The notes beneath the pieces are model-generated. The model saw only the letters and a program-made list of their open reading frames with translations, searched no databases and was not told the DNA's origin. Shown here piece after piece: positions 1 to 12,312 of a stretch of DNA of 14,023 bases. Source of the stretch: a virus (taxonomy: Duplodnaviria > Heunggongvirae > Uroviricota > Caudoviricetes); IMG/VR virus record IMGVR_UViG_3300042868_008486, positions 172,810 through 186,832 of that record, one strand, 5' to 3'. Numbering within the stretch: the stretch's first letter is position 1; every line of letters begins with the position of its first letter. Position numbers and translations under genes: made by a program.

Positions 1-1765
1 GGTAAACGTTACCATCAATCTTTCGATTTGTACCATTCTTTTCAGTTTCCAATTCAGTAATTCGTTGACCTGCCTTCAATAATTGGTTCTCGATTTTATC
101 GTTCGCCAAAATTTTGTCTTGTAACTCATTATACTTTTGTAACTTGTCATTCAATCCTTTGATTTTTAAATCATAAGACTCAATCGTTAGTTCGTATTTT
201 TCCTTGATTAACTTATTTTTCTCATACTCATCAAACTCTTTTTTAAGAGCAACAAAACCTTTCTCTTTGCCTGATAAAACCGTCATTAACCCCTCAATTT
301 GGTCTTTATGCGTGATAAAACCTGCAAGTTCATTGATTTTTGCTTGAGTAATTGAAGCGTTCATTAAATCAATACCACAGTGTTCACAAATGATACCCCC
401 ACTTACCGATGACTGTAATTTTTCGATAGATGTAATTTCACTTTGAACCCTAACAGACTCTTTGTATTGAATGTTGTACTCATTCTTAACCTCATCGTGT
501 TTATCTTCGTGATAAAACTCACTTGGTTCAACAACCCTTAATTCCAACAACTGTTTTTCAACCCCACCTTTCTGACTAGTTAATAGTAGTATTTCACCAT
601 TAACTTTCTCAGGTGATAATTGACTAATTTCTCGGTCAATATCAGTGTGTTTACTCTGCATCAAACTATCACGATATTCTTGACCTTTAATGATTCGGTC
701 TTGTATATCAATCAAAGTTTTTTGTAACTCAACATTTTCATCAGTCATTGTCTGAATATTTGTTTTGTAAGTCTCAATATCAGTTTTTAATGATTCCGAA
801 TTATACACATTCGATATCATTGATTTTGAGAACTCACTATACAATTCTTTCCCTGTGTCTTCTTTTCTTTTAAGGAAATCAAGACCCATAAATCGAGACA
901 AGACCTGACCACGAGCAGTTGGTTTAGAATCAATTAACTCTTCAAGGTTTGTTGCGGTAGTTAAGATTGTCATCAAAAAATCTTCTTTTGTACCGATGGA
1001 AGTTTTAATAAACGCTTCAGTTTCACGTCTCTGTTCACCTGTAAAGTTTTGTAAACTCCCATCAGCCAATTTTTTGAAGAAATCTAATTCTGTCTTAACT
1101 GTCCAATCACCACTTTTTGATAATTTACGAGTAATGTTTCTCTCAATGATATAATCATCCCCATCAATAACAATCTCACCTTTAACTGATACCTTATTCT
1201 TATCTGTAAATCTATTAAAGATTTCTTCTGCCTTAGTAGTTTTAGTCGTTTCGTTAAAGAATAGAAAGAATAGTAAATCGACACTAAGTACCGTTTTACC
1301 ACCAAAGTTAGGTGGGTTTGATTCCACTACTGAAATACCATCACACTTATCAAAATCTAATCGTTGGTTCTCACCATAAGATAAGAAGTTGGAGAACTCA
1401 ATGTTTTTAATAAACCATTTTTTAAAGGGGGTTACCTCAGATTGGTTCATTATCATTTTATTATCCACTTGATTATCTAACTCATAGATTTTATCGTAGT
1501 AACCCTCGTTAGACTTAGATTTTAAGAATGACTCAACTAAAGTTAACTGATAATTTTTATCCAAGATATTAAAAGAAATGTCAACATTATGTGTTGTTTC
1601 CTTACTAACTTTAGTTTTGGTAATTACATTGATATTCGTTGTCGAATACTTTTGTTGGAAATAATGTTTAACACTCTTAATTTTCTCTTGTGTAAAGTTC
1701 TCAGCATAATCCTCCCAAACTACTTGTACGTAAGGATTATCGAACTTAGTTAAATCAACACTCAT
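1..1765 (-). CDS. sbcC: SbcC/Rad50/T4 gp46-like recombination ATPase with a ~113-aa N-terminal extension; partial, runs off the left edge (588 codons in window)
   Basis: Hand-translated open frame from ATG at 1765 (MSVDLTKFDNPYVQVVWED...) to the window edge with no stop. It shows the SMC/Rad50 N-terminal strand motif WFIKNIEFSNFLSYGENQRLDF (from residue 117), a P-loop ESNPPNFGGKT (1292-1324), a long coiled coil, and a Zn-hook-like CEHC at residues 460-463 (377-388). Absent from the ORF track because it has no stop in the window. The symbol is a family label. Confidence 0.93.
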   Translation of the reverse strand, partial: MSVDLTKFDNPYVQVVWEDYAENFTQEKIKSVKHYFQQKYSTTNINVITKTKVSKETTHNVDISFNILDKNYQLTLVESFLKSKSNEGYYDKIYELDNQVDNKMIMNQSEVTPFKKWFIKNIEFSNFLSYGENQRLDFDKCDGISVVESNPPNFGGKTVLSVDLLFFLFFNETTKTTKAEEIFNRFTDKNKVSVKGEIVIDGDDYIIERNITRKLSKSGDWTVKTELDFFKKLADGSLQNFTGEQRRETEAFIKTSIGTKEDFLMTILTTATNLEELIDSKPTARGQVLSRFMGLDFLKRKEDTGKELYSEFSKSMISNVYNSESLKTDIETYKTNIQTMTDENVELQKTLIDIQDRIIKGQEYRDSLMQSKHTDIDREISQLSPEKVNGEILLLTSQKGGVEKQLLELRVVEPSEFYHEDKHDEVKNEYNIQYKESVRVQSEITSIEKLQSSVSGGIICEHCGIDLMNASITQAKINELAGFITHKDQIEGLMTVLSGKEKGFVALKKEFDEYEKNKLIKEKYELTIESYDLKIKGLNDKLQKYNELQDKILANDKIENQLLKAGQRITELETEKNGTNRKIDGNVY

Positions 1766-1766
1766 A

Positions 1767-2006
1767 TTAGTTTGCAGTTTCAGTTTCTGTTTCAGTAGTT
1801 GGTTCAAAGTCAGTTACTTCAACAATTTCGTTATTTAACGCGATATTAACTTCTTCATCAGATAAGTTAGCGAATTTATCTTTTAATTCAGCCATTTTAG
1901 CTTCCATAGCAGATTTATACGCTTTATCAAAGATGTTTTTTTCTTGTTTTAAACGAGCGTTACGTTTCTCAACTTTTTTTCTGTGTTCTTTTGCTTTTTT
2001 ACCCAT
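1767..2006 (-). CDS. Hypothetical protein, 79 aa, basic N-terminus (MGKKAKEHRKKVEKRNARLK) and acidic C-terminus
   Basis: Track ORF 1767..2054. I prefer the ATG at 2006 because the longer start overlaps a sigma70-like promoter and 2006 has an A/T-rich leader. Its stop is joined to the SbcC start by TAA-T-ATG. Confidence 0.7.
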   Translation of the reverse strand: MGKKAKEHRKKVEKRNARLKQEKNIFDKAYKSAMEAKMAELKDKFANLSDEEVNIALNNEIVEVTDFEPTTETETETAN

Positions 2007-2032
2007 TATTCTAAATTTAAATTGTTTTAATA

Positions 2033-2061
2033 ATATTAGAGAATTTAATCTCAATAGTCAA
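2033..2061 (-). promoter_or_regulatory. Putative sigma70-type promoter TTGACT-N17-TAATAT
   Basis: Minus strand reads ttgact attgagattaaattctc taatat, in the only sizeable gap in this part of the operon, upstream of the 79-aa gene and sbcC. Confidence 0.5.
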
Positions 2062-2062
2062 A

Positions 2063-2407
2063 TTATTTTGAAGGTCTATTTTCCTCAAACCATTCAACAA
2101 TAGAATTAATCGCCCATACACATCCTGACGCAAATAACCCATCAAAGAACCAAGATACGTGGTTATTACATCCTAAGTGTAAGTTAGTTGGTGAATACAC
2201 CGCCAACCCAATAAAGAAACCAACCCAAGTACTTGTACACATCATACAAGACAATAAATCGGCAAAAAAACCACCAATACCCTGAAATGGCATAAAAGGA
2301 TTATCACCCCAACTTTTAAGACCATTTCTTAACCAATTAAATATTGACCCATAAACTAGTATGTTACTCATACCATAAGCCATTAATACCCAAATAAAAA
2401 TTTCCAT
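2063..2407 (-). CDS. DUF1360-like small membrane protein with CxxC motif
   Basis: 114 aa with several hydrophobic segments and the motif LLSCMMCTSTWVG, which resembles the CxxC-x3-W signature I associate with DUF1360. Confidence 0.6.
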   Translation of the reverse strand: MEIFIWVLMAYGMSNILVYGSIFNWLRNGLKSWGDNPFMPFQGIGGFFADLLSCMMCTSTWVGFFIGLAVYSPTNLHLGCNNHVSWFFDGLFASGCVWAINSIVEWFEENRPSK

Positions 2408-2409
2408 AA

Positions 2410-3156
2410 TTACATTTTTTCTGATATATTGGAACCTTTTAAATAAACCGCAGGTTGCTGAATATTAGATTCCAATTGTTTATTTTTTAAAATTAACTCA
2501 TCAATTAATGAGTTTTTCAACGATAATTCTTTTCTTAAATTCAATATCGTCGATTCTAACATTTTTTGTTTTGAATTGTCAACAGTAACCTCTTTGATAA
2601 CTTCAACATTTTCGTTTTTATTACTTAGTTCGTCTAAATCACGTCTAAGTTCGTCTAATATTTTATCCTTGTTAGACATTTCATCTTGGAAAATATTTCC
2701 CATTTCTTTAGTTTTAATGGAAAATTCTTGCCTTTCAGACTCCAAATCTTCATTTAAGTGGAAAATGGTTTCATCCAACTGTTGTATTTTTAACAACAGT
2801 TCATTCTCAGATGTTTTGTCACTAATATATTCTATTTTTGTGACGATTTTTTCGATAGGAACTTCCTTAATAACTTCTCTATCCACATATTCAATAACTT
2901 TTACTTCAATAGGAACTTCAATTATTTTCTCAACTTCCTTTATTACTTCAACAGGGATTTCTACACGTTTTTCAACAATTACCTCAGTTTTTAAGTGTTT
3001 TTCACCTTCATTAAGTGAATTTCCCAAAAATCCGTATTTCTTTATATCAAAACCTTGTTTGAAACATTGTGTTACAAATAAATTAACATCCTCAATATTG
3101 TTTATTTTACAATACTGTAGGATGTCATTTTCATATTTCGAATTTATGTTAAGCAT
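2410..3156 (-). CDS. Hypothetical coiled-coil protein with V/I/E/K/P-rich (VPV-like) repeats
   Basis: 248 aa. Residues ~58-111 are VEKRVEIPVEVIKEVEKIIEVPIEVKVIEYVDREVIKEVPIEKIVTKIEY, followed by heptad-like L/E/K-rich helices. Overlaps the sbcD stop by 8 nt. Confidence 0.8.
   Translation of the reverse strand: MLNINSKYENDILQYCKINNIEDVNLFVTQCFKQGFDIKKYGFLGNSLNEGEKHLKTEVIVEKRVEIPVEVIKEVEKIIEVPIEVKVIEYVDREVIKEVPIEKIVTKIEYISDKTSENELLLKIQQLDETIFHLNEDLESERQEFSIKTKEMGNIFQDEMSNKDKILDELRRDLDELSNKNENVEVIKEVTVDNSKQKMLESTILNLRKELSLKNSLIDELILKNKQLESNIQQPAVYLKGSNISEKM
2824..2985 (-). repeat. Degenerate EVIKEV/EKIIEVP peptide repeats within the 248-aa CDS
   Basis: Repeated EVIKEV, EVPIE and EKIV-type units in the translation; one more VEVIKEV copy at residues 184-190. 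Confidence 0.7.
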
Positions 3157-3928
3157 TCGCTAGTTTTTCACTACCACTTTCAATGTCATCATAAGAACTC
3201 AACTTAAATGATAAGAATGGTCTTGGGTTATCTAAATCAACAAAACTGTAATCATCTTTCTCAACGTCATAAATTCCGAATCCGTGTTTAGTAATTGTCT
3301 CACCATAATTTTGTTGGATAGTAGAACCAACCATATAAGCTTTCTTACCACCAGGTATGTTGAATACTTGTCGTTTGTGGATATCACCACATAACACTAA
3401 ATCACAACCCCCAAACTTATCAGATTCAAAACCACTATCGAATTTATATCCGATGTCGGTTGTTAATCCCTGAACAGGTCCGTGGAATAAACCAATCTTA
3501 GTTCTACCCGTCTTTTCAATATCAGGGGGGATGTTATGGTCCATTAATGAGAATACAACCCAATCAACATTTTCATCTTCGTATTCTCCACGATTTTTTA
3601 AATAAACAATGTTTTCATTTTTCAATGAATCTATGATAGGTGTTAACGCATCCAATCTTGACATATTATTCTCAAGGAAATCGTGGTTACCAATAATCAA
3701 AATTGTTTTTGCAATCTTAGAACATTCGGTTAATGTCTCAGCAACAAACTCAATTAACTCAGGTGTCATTTGGTTTTTAGAATGTACCAAATCACCTGTA
3801 AATACGATTCTATCAGGTTTGATTTCTCTGAATCGGTCAAACATATCGTTCAATATTGAACGGTATAAATCGTGGTCTTTAAATAACCTAATGTGTAGGT
3901 CTGAAAAATGTACTAACTTTTTAATCAT
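3149..3928 (-). CDS. sbcD: SbcD/Mre11/T4 gp47-like metallophosphoesterase nuclease, catalytic domain only (259 aa)
   Basis: All five calcineurin-like phosphoesterase motifs are present: HFSDLH, FTGDLVH, IGNHD, LFHG and CGDIHKRQ. They are followed by YMVGSTIQQNYGE and HGFGIYD, typical of the SbcD/gp47 branch. A Rad50-like gene lies in the same operon. The symbol is a family label. Confidence 0.92.
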   Translation of the reverse strand: MIKKLVHFSDLHIRLFKDHDLYRSILNDMFDRFREIKPDRIVFTGDLVHSKNQMTPELIEFVAETLTECSKIAKTILIIGNHDFLENNMSRLDALTPIIDSLKNENIVYLKNRGEYEDENVDWVVFSLMDHNIPPDIEKTGRTKIGLFHGPVQGLTTDIGYKFDSGFESDKFGGCDLVLCGDIHKRQVFNIPGGKKAYMVGSTIQQNYGETITKHGFGIYDVEKDDYSFVDLDNPRPFLSFKLSSYDDIESGSEKLANA

Positions 3929-5710: not shown

Positions 5711-6580
5711 TTATCTAAGTTTATTAGTCAAATATTTTGACATATCCATATTAAAGATTGTCGTCTGAACTTCTTTAGGTACTCGAAATTCCTCATACTC
5801 CCCCGTTTCTTTAATTAGAACTATAATACAACCATACAATTTAATATTTTCAAATTTAGAACCCTGTAACATTTTCAATAATAATTTACCATAAAATGGT
5901 AATTGTGTGAAGTAGTGTCCTAACGCATTATTCGGGTGTTGTTGGAATGGAAACTTCATTGGTTTAGTAAAATAATTACTTTCAAAGTTTTTTGGTTTGT
6001 TCGTTTTCCAATCGGTAATTATAATTCCGAACTCAGTACCTTCCTTATTCATAATCAACCATACTTTATCGGGTTGTCCTGTGTACCCCAATTCAGGGTC
6101 ACCAAGAACAATCTCAGTATCTAATAACACCGCACCCCTATCAATCATCAATTGTAAGAAATCTTTACCGGCAGTAATCATACTATCACTCGTTAGTATT
6201 TGTTGAAAATCACACTCAAAGATTGGTTCCCTAACATCCTTGTAGTTACCAAATAACTTGATAGTTTCTTTCTCCAACAAGAAGTGAGCTCGTGACCCCA
6301 TATTTGTTGAGTAATCACCAGCAGCCTTCCATTCCGCCAACAAACGTTCTTTTTCTTCAGGGTCACCTTTTGATTTTTTCTCAGCAATTTCATCAGCGGG
6401 AAACTCATCATAAAAATATTTCATTACTTTTGACACAGATGGGTAATCACTTCTTATTTCCCCATTTAAATCCCTCATATAATAAGTGTGTGTGTCTTCG
6501 ACGAACGTTAAGTCTAACAACCTACGTCTCTTATCTAAAACTTCCCTAATCTCAAGCGCAACCTCATTTAAATCTATCAT
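5711..6580 (-). CDS. PD-(D/E)XK superfamily (RecB/Cas4-like) exonuclease
   Basis: 289 aa with LTFVEDTHTYY, PSVSKV, GSRAHFLLE, the catalytic motifs E...GYTGQPD and ITDWKT, and Y-x-x-QL-x-x-Y (YFTQLPFY). No Cas4 Fe-S cysteine set is evident. Confidence 0.88.
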   Translation of the reverse strand: MIDLNEVALEIREVLDKRRRLLDLTFVEDTHTYYMRDLNGEIRSDYPSVSKVMKYFYDEFPADEIAEKKSKGDPEEKERLLAEWKAAGDYSTNMGSRAHFLLEKETIKLFGNYKDVREPIFECDFQQILTSDSMITAGKDFLQLMIDRGAVLLDTEIVLGDPELGYTGQPDKVWLIMNKEGTEFGIIITDWKTNKPKNFESNYFTKPMKFPFQQHPNNALGHYFTQLPFYGKLLLKMLQGSKFENIKLYGCIIVLIKETGEYEEFRVPKEVQTTIFNMDMSKYLTNKLR

Positions 6581-7479
6581 CGCATATCATAATAATACTC
6601 CTCTTTTATTTCACCCCGTAAATCAGCAATATCTGACTCTCCCGGTAGTTTAATCACTTTTATTTTCCCATATAACCCACCACCATTCAATTCGTGGAAT
6701 AATTTTACAGAGTTTGGCCAAGCGTCGGCATCCAAACAAATTATAATATTCCCCATCGCTTTTTGATAGATAGTGTCGAATAATAACTCGGACATATGTT
6801 TACCTAACATAGGAATACTATTGGGTACGAAGAACCCATCAAATACCCCCTCAACTAAGTATATGTCCTGATTCCAATTAATCAAACTCTCATTGAATAT
6901 GATTTTATCTTTCTCAGCTTCAGGGTTTTTATATTTCGCTTTAGTATTAGGATACCAACTTCTTGCAATATAATAGTTTAATTTACCAAAACTATCATAA
7001 GAAGGGACGATAATCCTACCTGCGTGGTCACCTGTTCCACAAAAACCAATCTTGTATTTTTCGATAATTTCATCAGTAATACCCCTACTTTGTAGGTAAT
7101 TATACGCTTGTCTCCTAACAGGGTATGCCGGACTAACATCCTTGAATAATTTAAAATCATCAGGTAACTTTAATTTGACGTATTTCTTTTCTTTAGGTTT
7201 AAACGCCTCAGGTTGAAGAACTTCATATATCTTCTTTTGTTTTTTATTCCCATATAAATCAAATAGTTTACCCAAAGGTCCGTGAGTTCCGTTTTCGTCA
7301 GAACAACTCCAACATTTATATACGTGTGAGAAGTAATTAACTTCAAGATTACCTTTATGTCTCCCGTCATCACAAACAGGACAATCAAACGAGATTTGAC
7401 CTCTTGATTCATAATGTAAGTGTTCATCACCTAAAACATCACATAACAACTCTACCAATATTTCTTTATCATCAGACAT
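6577..7479 (-). CDS. dnaG: DnaG-type (Toprim) phage DNA primase with N-terminal Zn-binding domain, ~300 aa
   Basis: CPVC...KCWSC zinc-binding domain, YLQSRGI, GRIIVPSYD, KYKNP, Toprim IYLVEGVFD and CLDAD. The start is moved from 7515 to the ATG at 7479 (MSDDKEIL) because the longer start overlaps the divergent regulatory gap. The symbol is a family label. Confidence 0.93.
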   Translation of the reverse strand: MSDDKEILVELLCDVLGDEHLHYESRGQISFDCPVCDDGRHKGNLEVNYFSHVYKCWSCSDENGTHGPLGKLFDLYGNKKQKKIYEVLQPEAFKPKEKKYVKLKLPDDFKLFKDVSPAYPVRRQAYNYLQSRGITDEIIEKYKIGFCGTGDHAGRIIVPSYDSFGKLNYYIARSWYPNTKAKYKNPEAEKDKIIFNESLINWNQDIYLVEGVFDGFFVPNSIPMLGKHMSELLFDTIYQKAMGNIIICLDADAWPNSVKLFHELNGGGLYGKIKVIKLPGESDIADLRGEIKEEYYYDMR

Positions 7480-7495
7480 AACACCAAAAATAATC

Positions 7496-7503
7496 ATAAA
7501 TAT
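7496..7503 (-). promoter_or_regulatory. ATATTTAT motif upstream of the primase operon
   Basis: Plus strand ataaatat at 7496-7503 equals minus-strand ATATTTAT, ending 16 nt before the primase ATG. Confidence 0.4.
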
Positions 7504-7517
7504 TAAACTAATCAACC

Positions 7518-9285: not shown

Positions 9286-10062
9286 ATGAATTTTACTAAT
9301 CAACATCAACCTTATATTTTTAAGAACATAAATAATGAAATTAACATTATTGTTAGTGAATTTAGTCGTGATGGTATCACCTTTAATTTTGGAAATTATC
9401 AATCAACTGAAGATAGATGGAAATTACATCTATTAGACGCTAATTTCGTTAAAACAGTCATTAACACTCCCAATACTATAATATATGACGATATAACCTA
9501 TGATGTTATTGCGGAATGTAATGGTTATGTTGAAGACAATAAAATAAGTTATGTTATTGGTGGTTTTGACAAAATAAACCAATATTATTTCTATTTTTTG
9601 GTTTCAGGCGAATTTAATAATAACACAGTGTCTAACTTAAATGTTTTGGGAAGACATAGAACTGGGTTCCACAAACAAAACGATATTTACACAATTAATA
9701 AAAATAAAATCACAAGAAATAATTTAGAACTAGACATTAATCTAAACCCGTACCTGATTTCAATTGTGAGAATTATTCCAATATACGGTCATAATAAAAT
9801 GTTAATAACCGGTACTGACCATACAACAAATCACATAACATTGTTATATGATTTGGGTAACAATACATTACAAAAAATAACTACCCCAACGACTGACCAT
9901 ATTTATAAATCATCAATATATGATTATGATAATACCAAATTAATGGCTTATACCGATAAAATATATTCGACAGATAATTATGAAAAATTACAATTATCAC
10001 AATCAAGTCATAATTATAACCTAAACATTGAATCAGATTTCATTCTCAGTGAATTAAATTGA
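9286..10062 (+). CDS. Hypothetical Asn/Ile/Tyr-rich beta-strand protein, 258 aa
   Basis: Track ORF with an A-rich leader. Short hydrophobic strands separated by D/N/G turns, possibly propeller-like; only one Cys, unlike its neighbours. Confidence 0.75.
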   Translation: MNFTNQHQPYIFKNINNEINIIVSEFSRDGITFNFGNYQSTEDRWKLHLLDANFVKTVINTPNTIIYDDITYDVIAECNGYVEDNKISYVIGGFDKINQYYFYFLVSGEFNNNTVSNLNVLGRHRTGFHKQNDIYTINKNKITRNNLELDINLNPYLISIVRIIPIYGHNKMLITGTDHTTNHITLLYDLGNNTLQKITTPTTDHIYKSSIYDYDNTKLMAYTDKIYSTDNYEKLQLSQSSHNYNLNIESDFILSELN

Positions 10063-10092
10063 TTGACCAAAAGTTCTTATAACTATTATAAT
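10063..10092 (+). promoter_or_regulatory. Near-consensus sigma70-type promoter TTGACC-N18-TATAAT
   Basis: ttgacc at 10063-10068 and tataat at 10087-10092, in the intergenic gap 15 nt before ATG 10108. Confidence 0.6.
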
Positions 10093-10107
10093 AATAAATA
10101 AAAAAAT

Positions 10108-12312
10108 ATGCCGTTTTCAGTATCAACGTGTTTAACAGGATTAGGGACCGTAACATTAGGTCCCACATTAACAATATATAGTAACCCAATTCCGCCTAAT
10201 AATCAAGGTGTTTTTGTTGGTAATGTCGCAACATCATTAATCACAGGAAATGCTTGTCCTTACACTTTCGTTGTACCTGATGGGACCACAACAGTACGTT
10301 TATTCGACCCCGTTACTTTTTGTTATGCCGACATACCTGTAAGTAATAATAATGTCTGTTCAACGTGTAATTTAACTTTTACCTCGATTAGTAACAACCT
10401 TTTATCAACAATAAATGTCGGTTCTTTAGCCGGTACTTGTGACCCAGCAATCACTGATTATAGAATTAATTGGTATGGACCTAATAATTCAACACTATTA
10501 GCTTTTACTTCAGGTGCGGGAACTATATGGCCCGTTAGAGACGCCACTCAACCAATAACACCAACATCACTTGATGCTCCATTTTTAGAACCCGGAACTT
10601 ATGTTTCTAAAATCACTGAAGTTGAGCTAAATAATGTTAGATTCTCATATATCGGAGGAACCAATAACGTATTATCACCAAGTCTATTAAATTGTTCATA
10701 CACCGTATCTGTCTCACCTTATACTTGTCTTAATGGTTCTCCCCAACCAATTGATGGTTATTATGCACATCAAAAAACCTACATAACCGATGGTTCGTCA
10801 CCACCAAAATCAGGGAATGCGACAATTTCGTTAGGCGCCGGAACTCAATCCCTTATTTGGGCATTTTCAGGAGTTTCTATTTATGATACCTTAACGTTAA
10901 CATTTAACGGTAGTAGTTATTCAAACCCCATAGTTCTTGAAAGTTTTAGATTAGGCGGTGATGTTTCAAACGATACACGACCAACCACTTTTCCAAAAAC
11001 ATATGGTAATTCAGGTGAATTTAAAAAAATAACAATGTTAACAGGTTTAATTGTTAATAACAATGATACAATTGTGATTAATGTAACCCCAAACCCTAAT
11101 CCCGCATATGCAACATCTTGGAATTTAAAATTTGGTTGCCGTACTAACACACCTGCAAGTAAAATTTGTTTAGATGATTATAAAAATAAACCTTATAAGA
11201 TTCAAAAAAGTTCAATCCTTGCAACACCAATTTCTTGTGGTAATGTCAAAATATATTTTGAAATTAGTGGTTGTAGTACTAATGATAATGCGTTATTCTT
11301 CAATTCTGATTTGGTTAAACTAACATCATATATTGATAATGGGGTTTACAGTTTTGATAATACTACGAAATTAAGGTCATTTGGGTATGACTATTTTAGG
11401 CCACAATTATCCTCAATAAACCAAAACAACTCATCTTTAACATCAGAATGTACTAGTTCAGGTGCGAACACCGGAACCATAACAATTAGTAAATCAAATG
11501 TTAATGAGTTCACTATTTTTTGTAGTAATCAATCCGACATATTAGCGTTCGAATCATCATTTAACACTAGTAGAAACACCGCAATTAATACCGCAGGTCT
11601 TCCCGCATATACCCCGAATGACCCAACAAACATTAATTATTATCGTTTTTTCCAACTTGAATATTATACAAACTTAGGGAATTATTCTTGTGGTGATGGG
11701 GCTATAGTTACATCGGCGTGGTTACACTGTAATTCAACCTACACATTAAACCCAACTGTTGGTGGTTATCTTATGACTATACAGACCCCTTTGATATCAT
11801 ACAATCACCCTTGTACTGGTTGTAATCCTGGTTGTTCTAATTTGTTATATTACGTAACACAAGCTAACAATCTTAGAAACTCAACTTTTAATTATTCAAA
11901 CACGTCAGGTCTAAGAAAAACAAACCCTTTTAGGTTTTCTATGGCATATTCCGAAGGTTCAACGCCCGCCATTATGGAAAGAGAATTTATTGGTACTGTT
12001 AATGTTAGCCCTAAATATTCGACAAATACCTACGCGTCAACAAGTGATGGGTTAAACACTTTATTACCTTCGTTATCCGCAACATCTTGGGATTGGGAAA
12101 ACCATTTTGCCGAGGTTGACGCGACTACAGTAAACCCATTTTATAGACAACAACTTTTTAAATATAAAATAGTTGTCGTAACATTCACTCCATTAAGATT
12201 CCAACTATTTGGAGCACCAATTACTAATTTTTTAGCAGGTGCTTATGACCCAACACCTATTTATGACTCTTTATTCCCAAACTCATATAATAGTACTTAT
12301 ATATATGTTTAA
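10108..12312 (+). CDS. Large Cys/Thr/Ser/Asn-rich multidomain beta protein, putative virion structural/fibre protein, 734 aa
   Basis: Track ORF with about 19 Cys by hand count (including PCTGCNPGC), beta-rich composition and few charged residues. No signal peptide is evident. The function is inferred from composition and context. Confidence 0.75.
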   Translation: MPFSVSTCLTGLGTVTLGPTLTIYSNPIPPNNQGVFVGNVATSLITGNACPYTFVVPDGTTTVRLFDPVTFCYADIPVSNNNVCSTCNLTFTSISNNLLSTINVGSLAGTCDPAITDYRINWYGPNNSTLLAFTSGAGTIWPVRDATQPITPTSLDAPFLEPGTYVSKITEVELNNVRFSYIGGTNNVLSPSLLNCSYTVSVSPYTCLNGSPQPIDGYYAHQKTYITDGSSPPKSGNATISLGAGTQSLIWAFSGVSIYDTLTLTFNGSSYSNPIVLESFRLGGDVSNDTRPTTFPKTYGNSGEFKKITMLTGLIVNNNDTIVINVTPNPNPAYATSWNLKFGCRTNTPASKICLDDYKNKPYKIQKSSILATPISCGNVKIYFEISGCSTNDNALFFNSDLVKLTSYIDNGVYSFDNTTKLRSFGYDYFRPQLSSINQNNSSLTSECTSSGANTGTITISKSNVNEFTIFCSNQSDILAFESSFNTSRNTAINTAGLPAYTPNDPTNINYYRFFQLEYYTNLGNYSCGDGAIVTSAWLHCNSTYTLNPTVGGYLMTIQTPLISYNHPCTGCNPGCSNLLYYVTQANNLRNSTFNYSNTSGLRKTNPFRFSMAYSEGSTPAIMEREFIGTVNVSPKYSTNTYASTSDGLNTLLPSLSATSWDWENHFAEVDATTVNPFYRQQLFKYKIVVVTFTPLRFQLFGAPITNFLAGAYDPTPIYDSLFPNSYNSTYIYV

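What the first reader, a model, noticed from the sequence alone, without database searches (positions are those of the whole stretch)
1425..3928. Re-partitioned Mre11-Rad50: the nuclease C-terminal cap and Rad50-binding region appears fused to the ATPase N-terminus
Seen: the SbcD/Mre11 gene is only 259 aa and ends about 35 residues after its last catalytic-domain motif (...GFGIYDVEKDDYSFVDLDNPRPFLSFKLSSYDDIESGSEKLANA*). The SbcC/Rad50 ORF carries ~113 extra residues in frame before the canonical IKNIEFSNFLSYG start. Established: Mre11/SbcD/gp47 normally continue into a capping domain and a helix-loop-helix that grips the Rad50 coiled coil. Inference: the extension looks like that missing part. 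VDLTKFDNPYVQVVWED resembles the DYKDFTNLSVRVIV-type cap strand, and QLTLVESFLKSKSNEGYYDKIYELDNQV resembles the terminal LQTLMEEYI...ALIQYANQL helices of T4 gp47 (recalled from memory, not aligned computationally). The cap domain would then be split between two polypeptides and completed in trans, and the nuclease could be a detachable subunit. Three unrelated genes separate the halves. One route would be an ancestral Mre11-Rad50 fusion re-split at a new point.
Basis: partly seen in the sequence, partly recalled or inferred. Interest (0 to 1): 0.85.

Follow-up and report, generated by a model that had tools for sequence, protein, structure and literature searches.

The report
Phage Mre11-Rad50 re-split inside cap
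In this lake-water phage the DNA-end-processing enzyme Mre11-Rad50, which close relatives make as one fused protein, is cut into two genes at an unusual point, so that most of the nuclease's "cap" and its Rad50-gripping helices now sit on the front of Rad50 and the cap probably has to be rebuilt from two chains.

Summary
SbcD/Mre11 (3928..3149, minus strand) is 259 aa and stops about 25 residues after the phosphoesterase core. The Rad50 gene starts at ATG 1765 and has about 118 residues before the usual IKNIEFSNF start. Three genes lie between them.

- A natural single-chain Mre11-Rad50 fusion (P0238, 1065 aa) matches SbcD 1-250 with its residues 1-251. It matches Rad50 13-770 with its residues 271-1036. 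The break therefore falls in a 19-residue loop and nothing is lost.
- In an AlphaFold model of that fusion, residues ~237-310 superpose on the Mre11/SbcD capping domain. Two later helices fall where full-length E. coli SbcD carries its C-terminal Rad50-binding region.
- A complex model pairs the SbcD tail strand (235-246) with extension strand 8-19 (ipSAE 0.84, best control 0.00).
- Wherever an SbcD was found upstream in related viral loci, the nuclease ends at the same point, with 0.9-7 kb of genes between the halves.
- A tree nests the split clade inside the fusions.

Fusions (2011) and a different SbcD fracture after motif V (2009) are published. First readers of this scan noted this same cap split in other genomes. 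I rate it a new variant of a known kind. Binding is modelled, not measured.

The parts
3149..3928 (-). SbcD/Mre11 nuclease subunit, 259 aa: the phosphoesterase domain plus only the first strand or strands of the capping domain
   Evidence: Pfam Metallophos E 1.8e-13 and PHROG 100 SbcD-like E 9.4e-33. 43% identical to residues 1-251 of the fused P0238.
3152..3226 (-). SbcD tail, residues 235-259: cap strand PRPFLSFKLSSY plus a conserved C-terminal peptide. This is the predicted docking element.
   Evidence: Interface residues 235-246, 249, 252, 254, 256-257 and 259 in the complex model. Mean pairwise identity of the tail is 70% (235-246) and 64% (247-259), against 73.5% for the catalytic part, over 44 distinct relatives.
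2410..3156 (-). Gap gene 1, 248 aa: small N-terminal domain, EV-rich repeats, coiled coil. Function unknown.
   Evidence: No significant Pfam or PHROG family. Homologues sit in the same gap in most related loci examined.
2063..2407 (-). Gap gene 2, 114 aa: hydrophobic, membrane-protein-like sequence
   Evidence: Borderline DUF1360 hit (E 3.5e-4, at the cut-off) and phrog_781. Conserved in the gap in most examined loci, including the distant relative L008.
1767..2006 (-). Gap gene 3, 79 aa: charged small protein. Its stop lies one base before the Rad50 ATG.
   Evidence: A contig from an RNA library spans 1341-1983 without a joint.
1412..1765 (-). Rad50 N-terminal extension, residues 1-118. It corresponds to the segment between nuclease and ATPase in single-chain fusions.
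   Evidence: Rad50 13-770 aligns to P0238 271-1036, E 3e-121. Conserved in 113 clusters at 50% identity. The AF2 model of the extension alone has mean pLDDT 87.
1613..1729 (-). Remainder of the capping domain on Rad50: strand 13-19, helix 26-40, strand 45-51
   Evidence: Secondary structure. It maps onto E270-277, H284-298 and E302-310 of the fused model, inside the part that superposes on Mre11/SbcD nuclease-plus-capping structures. It contacts the SbcD tail in the complex model.
1436..1558 (-). Helical pair, residues 70-83 and 87-110: candidate equivalent of the Mre11 Rad50-binding helix-loop-helix
   Evidence: The equivalent helices 328-341 and 348-359 of the fused model fall inside the range aligned to E. 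coli SbcD in the SbcCD head complex (model 3..368/369 against chain 1..395). A search with the isolated fragment was uninformative.
2..1411 (-). Rad50/SbcC ATPase body: Walker A NFGGKT at residue 153, zinc hook CEHC at residue 460 (window 377-388). It continues beyond the window to residue 774.
   Evidence: PHROG 77 SbcC-like E 2.8e-21. Full ORF in L001. Motif positions.

Best explanation
This is a two-gene Mre11-Rad50 (SbcD-SbcC) nuclease that descends from a single-chain Mre11-Rad50 fusion gene. The fusion was broken again at a new place, in a loop inside the Mre11 capping domain.

The upstream gene keeps the phosphoesterase domain and the first cap strand or strands (259 aa). The downstream gene begins with the rest of the cap (strand-helix-strand) and a helical pair, followed directly by the Rad50 ATPase head, coiled coil and zinc hook. 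That helical pair lies where Mre11 normally has its Rad50-binding helix-loop-helix.

The inferred mechanism has three parts.
- The two chains assemble when the SbcD tail strand (residues 235-246) adds onto the edge of the Rad50-borne cap sheet (strand 13-19, backed by helix 26-40). This rebuilds a complete cap in trans and holds the nuclease on Rad50.
- The helical pair binds the base of the coiled coil within the same chain.
- The enzyme then works like other phage Mre11-Rad50 enzymes, with ATP-driven processing of DNA ends and hairpins for recombination-dependent replication.

Shown here: the anatomy, the homology, colinearity with fusions, conservation across the clade, and nesting of the split clade among fusions. 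Inferred: physical assembly, the in-chain helix to coiled-coil contact, and activity.
For: Colinearity:
- P0238 (1065 aa, one chain) matches SbcD 1-250 with residues 1-251 (43% identity, E 2e-69). It matches Rad50 13-770 with residues 271-1036 (32% identity, E 3e-121).
- The 19 unaligned fusion residues correspond to the 9 + 12 residues at the two new termini.
- Fusions are also seen in Microcystis phage Mel-JY01, the huge phage LR756501 and Tenacibaculum phage pT24.
- At least 1190 longer homologues of the window's SbcD were found, and nearly all of the 120 listed are ~1040-1100 aa.

Identity of the segment:
- The AF2 model of P0238:1-385 has mean pLDDT 84.7.
- Mre11/SbcD nuclease-plus-capping structures align over model residues 2..307 (7dog_A: Z 25.9, rmsd 3.2, 276 aligned).
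- Full SbcD from SbcCD head complexes aligns to 3..368/369 (7yzo_B, 6s85_B: Z 23.4-23.9, 323 aligned).
- Metallophosphatases without a cap stop at ~234.
- hhalign of the fused profile against T4 gp47 is colinear over gp47 residues 2-328 of 339 (E 1.3e-5, probability 80%).

Assembly:
- Complex model of SbcD with Rad50 1-120: ipSAE 0.84 in three runs, best of 3 controls 0.00. That mark was reached by 58 of 80 solved complexes and 2 of 110 mismatched pairs.
- The runs agree in at least 62% of contacts, and the partner's pLDDT is 58.
- The least-error contacts are 239:13, 241:15 and 243:17, which are the two strands.

Selection:
- The SbcD tail is about as conserved as the catalytic core.
- The extension is conserved in 113 clusters at 50% identity.
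- In 60 of 84 surveyed loci an SbcD was found upstream on the same strand, and every complete copy ends at the same point (258-271 aa in nearly all; 293 aa in L030/L032). It lies 945-6969 bp upstream of the extended Rad50.

Polarity: in the nuclease-domain tree, rooted on canonical Herelleviridae SbcD, all 15 split sequences fall inside a starred clade (SH-aLRT 95) with 10 fusions, and 19 further fusions lie outside it.
Against: - No experiment shows that the two proteins bind or that the enzyme is active.
- The complex pass may owe something to likeness with solved Mre11 cap structures, because these are halves of a split gene. My own alignments were used, so the calibration counts hold only roughly.
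- The extension's profile alone finds no Mre11 chain by sequence and does not match gp47. The model of the extension alone finds only generic matches (best Foldseek E 0.2; best VIA Z 4.8).
- The helix-loop-helix assignment rests on position, helix pattern and alignment ranges. It does not rest on a specific match or a modelled contact with the coiled coil.
- The tree used the quick method, has a very long outgroup branch (3.2) and places the fused P0238 between split lineages with support of only 85.
Confidence: 0.82

Rival explanations
1. The split arrangement is the older state, and the single-chain fusions arose from it by loss of the intervening genes and read-through.
For: P0238 (fused) sits between L009 and the other split sequences in the tree, so at least one extra change of state is needed in either direction. 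The root lies on a long branch.
Against: 19 fusions branch outside the starred clade that holds every split sequence. Canonical Mre11 proteins (T4 gp47 at 339 aa, Herelleviridae SbcD at 341-350 aa) carry the cap and the C-terminal helices on the nuclease gene. Moving those parts onto Rad50 is most simply done by first fusing the adjacent genes.
Confidence: 0.08
2. The extension is an unrelated N-terminal domain of Rad50, for example a DNA-binding module. SbcD is then simply a minimal nuclease that lost its C-terminus.
For: The extension alone gives no significant sequence or fold match to Mre11.
Against: It is homologous and colinear with the segment that directly follows the nuclease domain in one-chain relatives. 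That segment superposes on solved capping domains.
Confidence: 0.03
3. The two halves are rejoined into one chain by an intron, an intein or trans-splicing, so the working protein is still a fusion.
For: Fractured phage genes that use split inteins are known (PMC2677866).
Against: The two ORFs together account for the whole length of the fusion loop, which leaves no room for intein halves. No Rfam family, introns included, reaches threshold in the window. The gap holds three conserved protein genes. No contig from an RNA library joins across the gap, although contigs cannot prove absence.
Confidence: 0.02
4. The two genes no longer work together. SbcD(259) acts alone or with another partner, and the cap remnant on Rad50 is a relic.
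For: The genes can lie up to 7 kb apart. In five surveyed loci with about 10 kb of upstream sequence (L061-L064, L072) and in L007 (about 7 kb), no SbcD was found upstream.
Against: Both the tail and the extension are conserved to their ends at deep divergence. The complex model places them together with high confidence against null controls.
Confidence: 0.05

Closest known systems
Natural single-chain Mre11/Rad50 (SbcD/SbcC) fusion proteins (Yoshida, Claverie and Ogata 2011, PMC3175470). Phage examples seen here: Microcystis phage Mel-JY01 WWT39521.1, Tenacibaculum phage pT24 BAV39141.1, and metagenomic P0238.
   Same: Same domains in the same order: nuclease, cap, helical pair, short linker, Rad50 head, coiled coil with CxxC hook. 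Direct homology: 43% identity to SbcD and 32% to Rad50 for P0238.
   Different: Here the chain is broken inside the cap. The two genes are separated by 1.38 kb that holds three other genes.
'Fractured' SbcD-like gene from Lake Gatun data, with a Vsr-like homing endonuclease between the halves (Dassa et al. 2009, PMC2677866). The motif-V splits already described in this scan belong here too.
   Same: A phage Mre11-type gene made in separately translated pieces that must reassemble without an intein. Some members of this very clade (L008, L089) and LR756508 (L006) also carry the motif-V break, with a TnsA/Vsr-like or NUMOD3-bearing ORF inserted.
   Different: That break lies after phosphoesterase motif V (GDIHKRQ), inside the catalytic domain, and it holds an endonuclease gene. 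The break here is ~50 residues further on, in a cap loop. It holds no recognisable endonuclease and is fixed across a large clade.
Canonical two-gene enzymes: T4 gp47/gp46, Herelleviridae exonuclease A/B, E. coli SbcCD (6S6V, 6S85, 7YZO), T. maritima Mre11-Rad50 (3THO)
   Same: Gene order is nuclease first, then small ORFs, then ATPase. Same catalytic motifs and same overall folds.
   Different: In those enzymes the cap and the Rad50-binding helices belong to the nuclease chain, and the contact between the subunits is helix-loop-helix to coiled coil.
Other phage 'genes in pieces': Aeromonas phage Aeh1 NrdA split by mobE, and T4 topoisomerase gp39/gp60. Cited from my own knowledge and from earlier scan notes, not re-read here.
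   Same: An essential enzyme that is one chain in relatives is made from separately translated parts that reassemble non-covalently.
   Different: A different enzyme. In Aeh1 the intervening gene is a homing endonuclease.

Membership tests
Mre11/SbcD nuclease | Calcineurin-like phosphoesterase domain with the conserved metal-binding motifs | tested here: met
   Pfam PF00149 E 1.8e-13. D10, H12, D46, N81, H82, H149 and H184 are invariant in a 41-row alignment. The fused homologue's model aligns to Mre11/SbcD structures at Z 24-26.
Mre11/SbcD nuclease | Capping domain directly after the nuclease domain, on the same chain | tested here: not met
   The SbcD ORF ends at residue 259 with only the first cap strand or strands. 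The rest is encoded at the start of the Rad50 gene. A cap is present in the system but is divided between two chains.
Mre11/SbcD nuclease | C-terminal helix-loop-helix that binds the base of the Rad50 coiled coil | tested here: inconclusive
   Two helices (70-83 and 87-110) lie at the expected position. Alignments of the fused model to full E. coli SbcD reach chain residue 395. The isolated fragment finds only generic helical hairpins (Z <= 4.8). No contact with the coiled coil was modelled.
Rad50/SbcC ATPase | Split ABC ATPase head, long coiled coil, CxxC zinc hook | tested here: met
   PHROG 77 E 2.8e-21. PF13558 is recorded for the identical protein P0005. Walker A NFGGKT is at residue 153 and CEHC at residue 460. 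The C-terminal signature and Walker B region are present in the 774-aa ORF.
Mre11-Rad50 complex | The nuclease and ATPase subunits bind each other | not testable with these tools
   Only a model exists: ipSAE 0.84 against a best control of 0.00. That mark was reached by 58 of 80 solved complexes and 2 of 110 mismatched pairs. Run agreement is at least 62% and the partner's pLDDT is 58. The model supports binding but does not show it.
Single-chain Mre11-Rad50 fusion (Yoshida 2011 type) | Both enzymes encoded in one open reading frame | tested here: not met
   There are two ORFs, 1383 bases apart, with three genes between them. The same layout is seen in the surveyed relatives that have an SbcD upstream. 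The system is homologous to that family but is not a member of it.
Fractured gene with a homing endonuclease (Dassa 2009 type) | An endonuclease gene lies between the two halves | tested here: not met
   The three gap proteins of the window have no endonuclease family hit in Pfam or PHROGs. Other gaps hold cargo such as a Dam-type methylase, a PLP enzyme or an ABC membrane protein.

The most novel reading that the evidence does not exclude
The break inside the cap may be more than a tolerated scar. It could make the nuclease a separately dosed, exchangeable subunit that docks on Rad50 only by edge-strand complementation. Cutting activity could then be switched by how much SbcD is made, or by the conserved gap proteins (a coiled-coil repeat protein, a hydrophobic membrane-like protein and a small charged protein). 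That would be a natural split-protein control of an Mre11-Rad50 enzyme.
Probability: 0.12. Interest if true: 0.75.

Novelty: new variant of a known kind. Interest (0 to 1): 0.5.

Why it matters
Mre11-Rad50 is a central DNA-break enzyme in all domains of life. How the nuclease is tethered to the ATPase, and how it is repositioned on it, is at the heart of its mechanism.

This large clade of uncultured freshwater phages offers a natural variant in which the usual tether lies within the Rad50 chain. The only inferred link between the nuclease and the ATPase is a cap domain assembled from two chains. That makes two questions directly testable. Is a covalent nuclease-to-cap link needed? Can the cap act as a docking platform?

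The clade also documents a fusion-then-fission path that moves a domain boundary between partner proteins. In some members a second, known fracture site is present as well, giving three-piece enzymes.

Tried and rejected
- Profile of the extension (A7) against all PDB sequences: no Mre11 or SbcD chain was found. The best hit was RB69/T4 gp32 at E 0.0055 over a helical stretch, which I treat as chance.
- hhalign of A7 against T4 gp47 alone: probability 0.2%, so nothing.
- AF2 model of the extension alone (pLDDT 87, pTM 0.44) against PDB. Foldseek's best hit had E 0.2, and T. maritima Mre11 appeared only at rank 9 with rmsd ~13. VIA-align across 48,161 chains gave a best Z of 4.8, all generic helical hairpins or beta-alpha-beta units. 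An Mre11-Rad50 complex chain (9bi4_B) scored Z 4.3, tied with unrelated rows. A fragment of a domain plus a flexible helical pair is too small for these searches. This is inconclusive, not negative.
- Pfam on the extension alone gave only a sub-threshold EZH2_N hit. PHROGs gave a weak 'terminal protein' hit at E 0.0016. I disregard both.
- Internal start at M104/M106: rejected, because those Met residues are not conserved while the upstream 100 residues are.
- Intron, intein or splicing: there was no Rfam hit in the window. Contigs from RNA libraries showed no joint from the SbcD end to the Rad50 start. One contig (X15, 1341-1983) runs continuously from gap gene 3 into the extension. These are contigs, which may include DNA carry-over and cannot show absence. 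The joints listed inside 2248-2936 lie in the repeat-protein gene and look like strain length variants.
- Literature search for Mel-JY01 found no paper.
- I did not model the full 2:2 complex or the contact between the helical pair and the coiled coil.

Full report
**Where the window lies.** The window is the last 14 kb of a 186.8-kb IMG/VR viral contig, estimated 64% complete. G+C is about 30%. Near-identical DNA occurs in many lake-water metagenomes. Related contigs reach 370 kb.

**Checking the observation.**
- The minus strand carries, in order: a 259-aa SbcD/Mre11 gene (3928..3149), three ORFs of 248, 114 and 79 aa, and a Rad50/SbcC gene.
- The Rad50 ATG at 1765 lies one base after the preceding stop codon.
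- SbcD has the Metallophos domain (E 1.8e-13) and matches the PHROG SbcD family (E 9.4e-33).
- The Rad50 frame matches the PHROG SbcC family (E 2.8e-21). It reads 118 residues before the usual IKNIEFSNF start.
- The complete protein, read from the parent contig, is 774 aa.

**The extension is a real, conserved part of the protein.**
- 1672 proteins match residues 1-120 at E <= 0.01. The best 120 are ~774-790-aa Rad50 homologues.
- An exhaustive search of 1.84 billion cluster representatives finds 113 clusters. The match lies at the very N-terminus in nearly all of them.
- Alignments show strong conservation down to ~30% identity. The signature is VxWEDxxENF, then YFxKKY, then DxNYQxxL, then LDxxVN.
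- M104 and M106 are not conserved, so a general internal start is excluded.

**The key result: relatives make one fused protein.**
- A translated search of phage genomes placed the best SbcD and Rad50 matches side by side in Microcystis phage Mel-JY01 and in two huge uncultured phages.
- In Mel-JY01 both matches lie in one annotated 1066-aa CDS. In LR756501 both lie in one 1202-aa ORF. Tenacibaculum phage pT24 has a 1310-aa fusion.
- Searching for longer homologues of the window's SbcD returned at least 1190 proteins. Nearly all of the 120 listed are ~1040-1100 aa and carry both the Metallophos and the SMC/AAA families. They are 35-45% identical to SbcD.
- The best one, P0238 (1065 aa), aligns to SbcD 1-250 with its residues 1-251 (43% identity, E 2e-69). 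It aligns to Rad50 13-770 with its residues 271-1036 (32% identity, E 3e-121).
- The window's two proteins are therefore colinear with a single chain. The break falls in a 19-residue loop, matched by the 9 + 12 terminal residues of the two pieces.
- A joint alignment shows the same thing for Mel-JY01, LR756501 and LR756508.

**What the transferred segment is.**
- An AlphaFold2 model of P0238:1-385, built from 40 sequences, has mean pLDDT 84.7. After the phosphoesterase sandwich it shows strands 239-246, 249-255 and 270-277, helix 284-298, strand 302-310, and then helices 328-341 and 348-359.
- Solved Mre11/SbcD 'nuclease and capping domain' structures superpose over model residues 2..307. Examples: S. 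aureus SbcD 7dog_A at Z 25.9, rmsd 3.2 Å, 276 aligned; also E. coli, T. maritima, P. furiosus and human Mre11.
- Full-length E. coli SbcD from SbcCD head complexes aligns over 3..368/369 against chain residues 1..395 (Z 23.4-23.9, 323 aligned).
- Metallophosphatases without a cap align only to about residue 234 (Z 18-20).
- The window's extension maps onto the fused model with a constant offset of 258. Its own model (pLDDT 87) has strand 13-19, helix 26-40, strand 45-51 and helices 70-83 and 87-110.
- The extension is therefore the latter part of the capping domain, plus a helical pair in the place of Mre11's Rad50-binding helix-loop-helix.
- T4 gp47, taken from its record, aligns end to end with the fused profile (residues 2-328 of 339, E 1.3e-5). 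Its ...NLSVRVIV... falls on the strand equivalent to YVQVVWED. Its ...LQTLMEEYI... falls on the first helix of the pair.
- The extension taken alone is too small for either sequence or fold searches to single out Mre11.

**Do the halves fit together?**
- I ran a complex prediction of SbcD (259 aa, 41-row alignment) with Rad50 1-120 (52-row alignment). It scored ipSAE 0.84-0.85 in three runs, against 0.00 for all three controls.
- The tool's mark was reached by 58 of 80 solved complexes and by 2 of 110 mismatched pairs. The runs agree in at least 62% of contacts, and the partner's pLDDT is 58.
- The confident interface is SbcD 235-246 (PRPFLSFKLSSY) against Rad50 8-19 (FDNPYVQVVWED) and helix residues 28-40. 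The least-error pairs are 239:13, 241:15 and 243:17.
- Caveat: these are halves of a split gene and the cap fold is solved. The pass may partly reflect that likeness, and it does not show binding.

**Conservation argues that the contact matters.** Across 44 distinct relatives, mean pairwise identity is 70% for SbcD 235-246 and 64% for 247-259, against 73.5% for the catalytic part. Every protein stops within three residues of the same point.

**Survey of relatives.**
- In 60 of the 84 loci that matched the extension, an SbcD was found upstream on the same strand.
- In those 60, the SbcD ORF ends at the residue equivalent to 258-259. It lies 945-6969 bp upstream of an extended Rad50. The distant members L008 and L009 show the same arrangement.
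- Homologues of the window's gap genes recur in that gap in most of the examined loci (the 114-aa one in 12 of 13, the 248-aa one in 11, the 79-aa one in 7). They sit among variable cargo such as a Dam-type methylase, a PLP enzyme and an ABC membrane protein.

**Direction of change.**
- I built a nuclease-domain tree of 46 sequences and rooted it on canonical Herelleviridae SbcD. All 15 split sequences fall within a starred clade (SH-aLRT 95) together with 10 fusions. A further 19 fusions lie outside it.
- Canonical enzymes carry the cap and helices on the nuclease gene. Together with the tree, the simplest history is adjacent genes, then fusion, then fission at a new site.
- Caveats: the quick tree method was used, the outgroup branch is long, and the fused P0238 falls between split lineages at support 85. 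The number of fission events (one or two) is therefore open.

**Rivals.**
- The extension as an unrelated domain is excluded by the colinearity.
- Rejoining by intron or intein is unlikely. There are no spare residues, no Rfam hit, three conserved genes occupy the gap, and no joined contig appears in RNA libraries. That last point is weak, because contigs cannot show absence.
- Functional uncoupling of the two genes cannot be excluded without experiments, but conservation argues against it.

**What is already known.**
- Natural Mre11/Rad50 fusions were described in 2011. That paper noted that a region of cap-plus-helix-loop-helix length is kept and that a short linker suffices (PMC3175470).
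- A 'fractured' SbcD-like gene with a Vsr-like endonuclease between its halves was described in 2009 (PMC2677866).
- Follow-ups in this scan have described that motif-V fracture in fused phage genes. I saw it again here in LR756508, L008 and L089, where a TnsA/Vsr-like or NUMOD3-bearing ORF follows GDIHKRQ.
- L008 and L089 also have the cap split, so their enzyme comes in three pieces.
- The cap-loop split itself was noted by first readers of this scan in several other genomes. I found no follow-up on it and no paper.

**Verdict.** This is a new variant of a known kind: a clade-wide re-partition of Mre11-Rad50 in which the subunit boundary runs through the capping domain. Interest is moderate. 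The result is not a new enzyme but a clean natural experiment on how the nuclease is held on Rad50.

Noticed in passing
L008:2586-4316, L089:1035-2779 and L006:4950-9175: Some relatives carry a second break in the nuclease gene, just after motif V (GDIHKRQ). An ORF is inserted there: zinc finger plus TnsA/Vsr-like in L006 and L008, NUMOD3-bearing in L089. In L008 and L089, which also have the cap split, the enzyme is then encoded in three pieces. The middle piece is only 74-76 aa.
   Followed up: partly
window 2410-3156 (-), 2063-2407 (-) and 1767-2006 (-): Homologues of the three genes between the halves recur in the same gap in most related loci examined: the 114-aa one in 12 of 13, the 248-aa one in 11, the 79-aa one in 7. 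They are a coiled-coil protein with EV-rich repeats, a 114-aa hydrophobic membrane-like protein and a small charged protein. Their function is unknown, and a link to the nuclease is possible. Contigs from related strains show length variants inside the repeat protein gene.
   Followed up: partly
window 3191-3241 and 1715-1759 (-): The SbcD tail (…FVDLDNPRPFLSFKL…) and the Rad50 head (…VDLTKFDNPYVQVVW…) share a VDL..DNP-then-strand pattern. This could be chance. It could also be a remnant of a short duplication made when the gene was broken. An earlier scan note reports a junction duplication at the other split site.
   Followed up: no
window 1292-1309 and 377-388 (-): The Rad50 Walker A reads NPPNFGGKT and the zinc hook reads CEHC rather than the more usual CPxC. 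Both were also flagged by a first-reader note (e1-5443663). I located them but did not analyse them.
   Followed up: no
A7 profile positions 40-101 against RB69/T4 gp32 residues ~157-220: The profile of the extension's helical part gives a borderline sequence match (E 0.0055) to the C-terminal part of the gp32 core (DxxFQxxL…LNxKxN). This is probably composition or helix periodicity.
   Followed up: no
L080/L081/L083 around 9947-10552: In three related loci the extended Rad50 frame stops after ~200 aa. This suggests a further interruption of the ATPase gene in those phages.
   Followed up: no
window 5711-7515 (-) and L001:298-912 (-): Upstream of the SbcD block lie a PD-(D/E)xK-type exonuclease (phrog_298) and a DNA primase (phrog_47). 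In relatives, Rad50 is followed downstream by a DUF6576 protein and a full sigma-70-family factor. The split nuclease therefore sits in a conserved replication and recombination module.
   Followed up: partly
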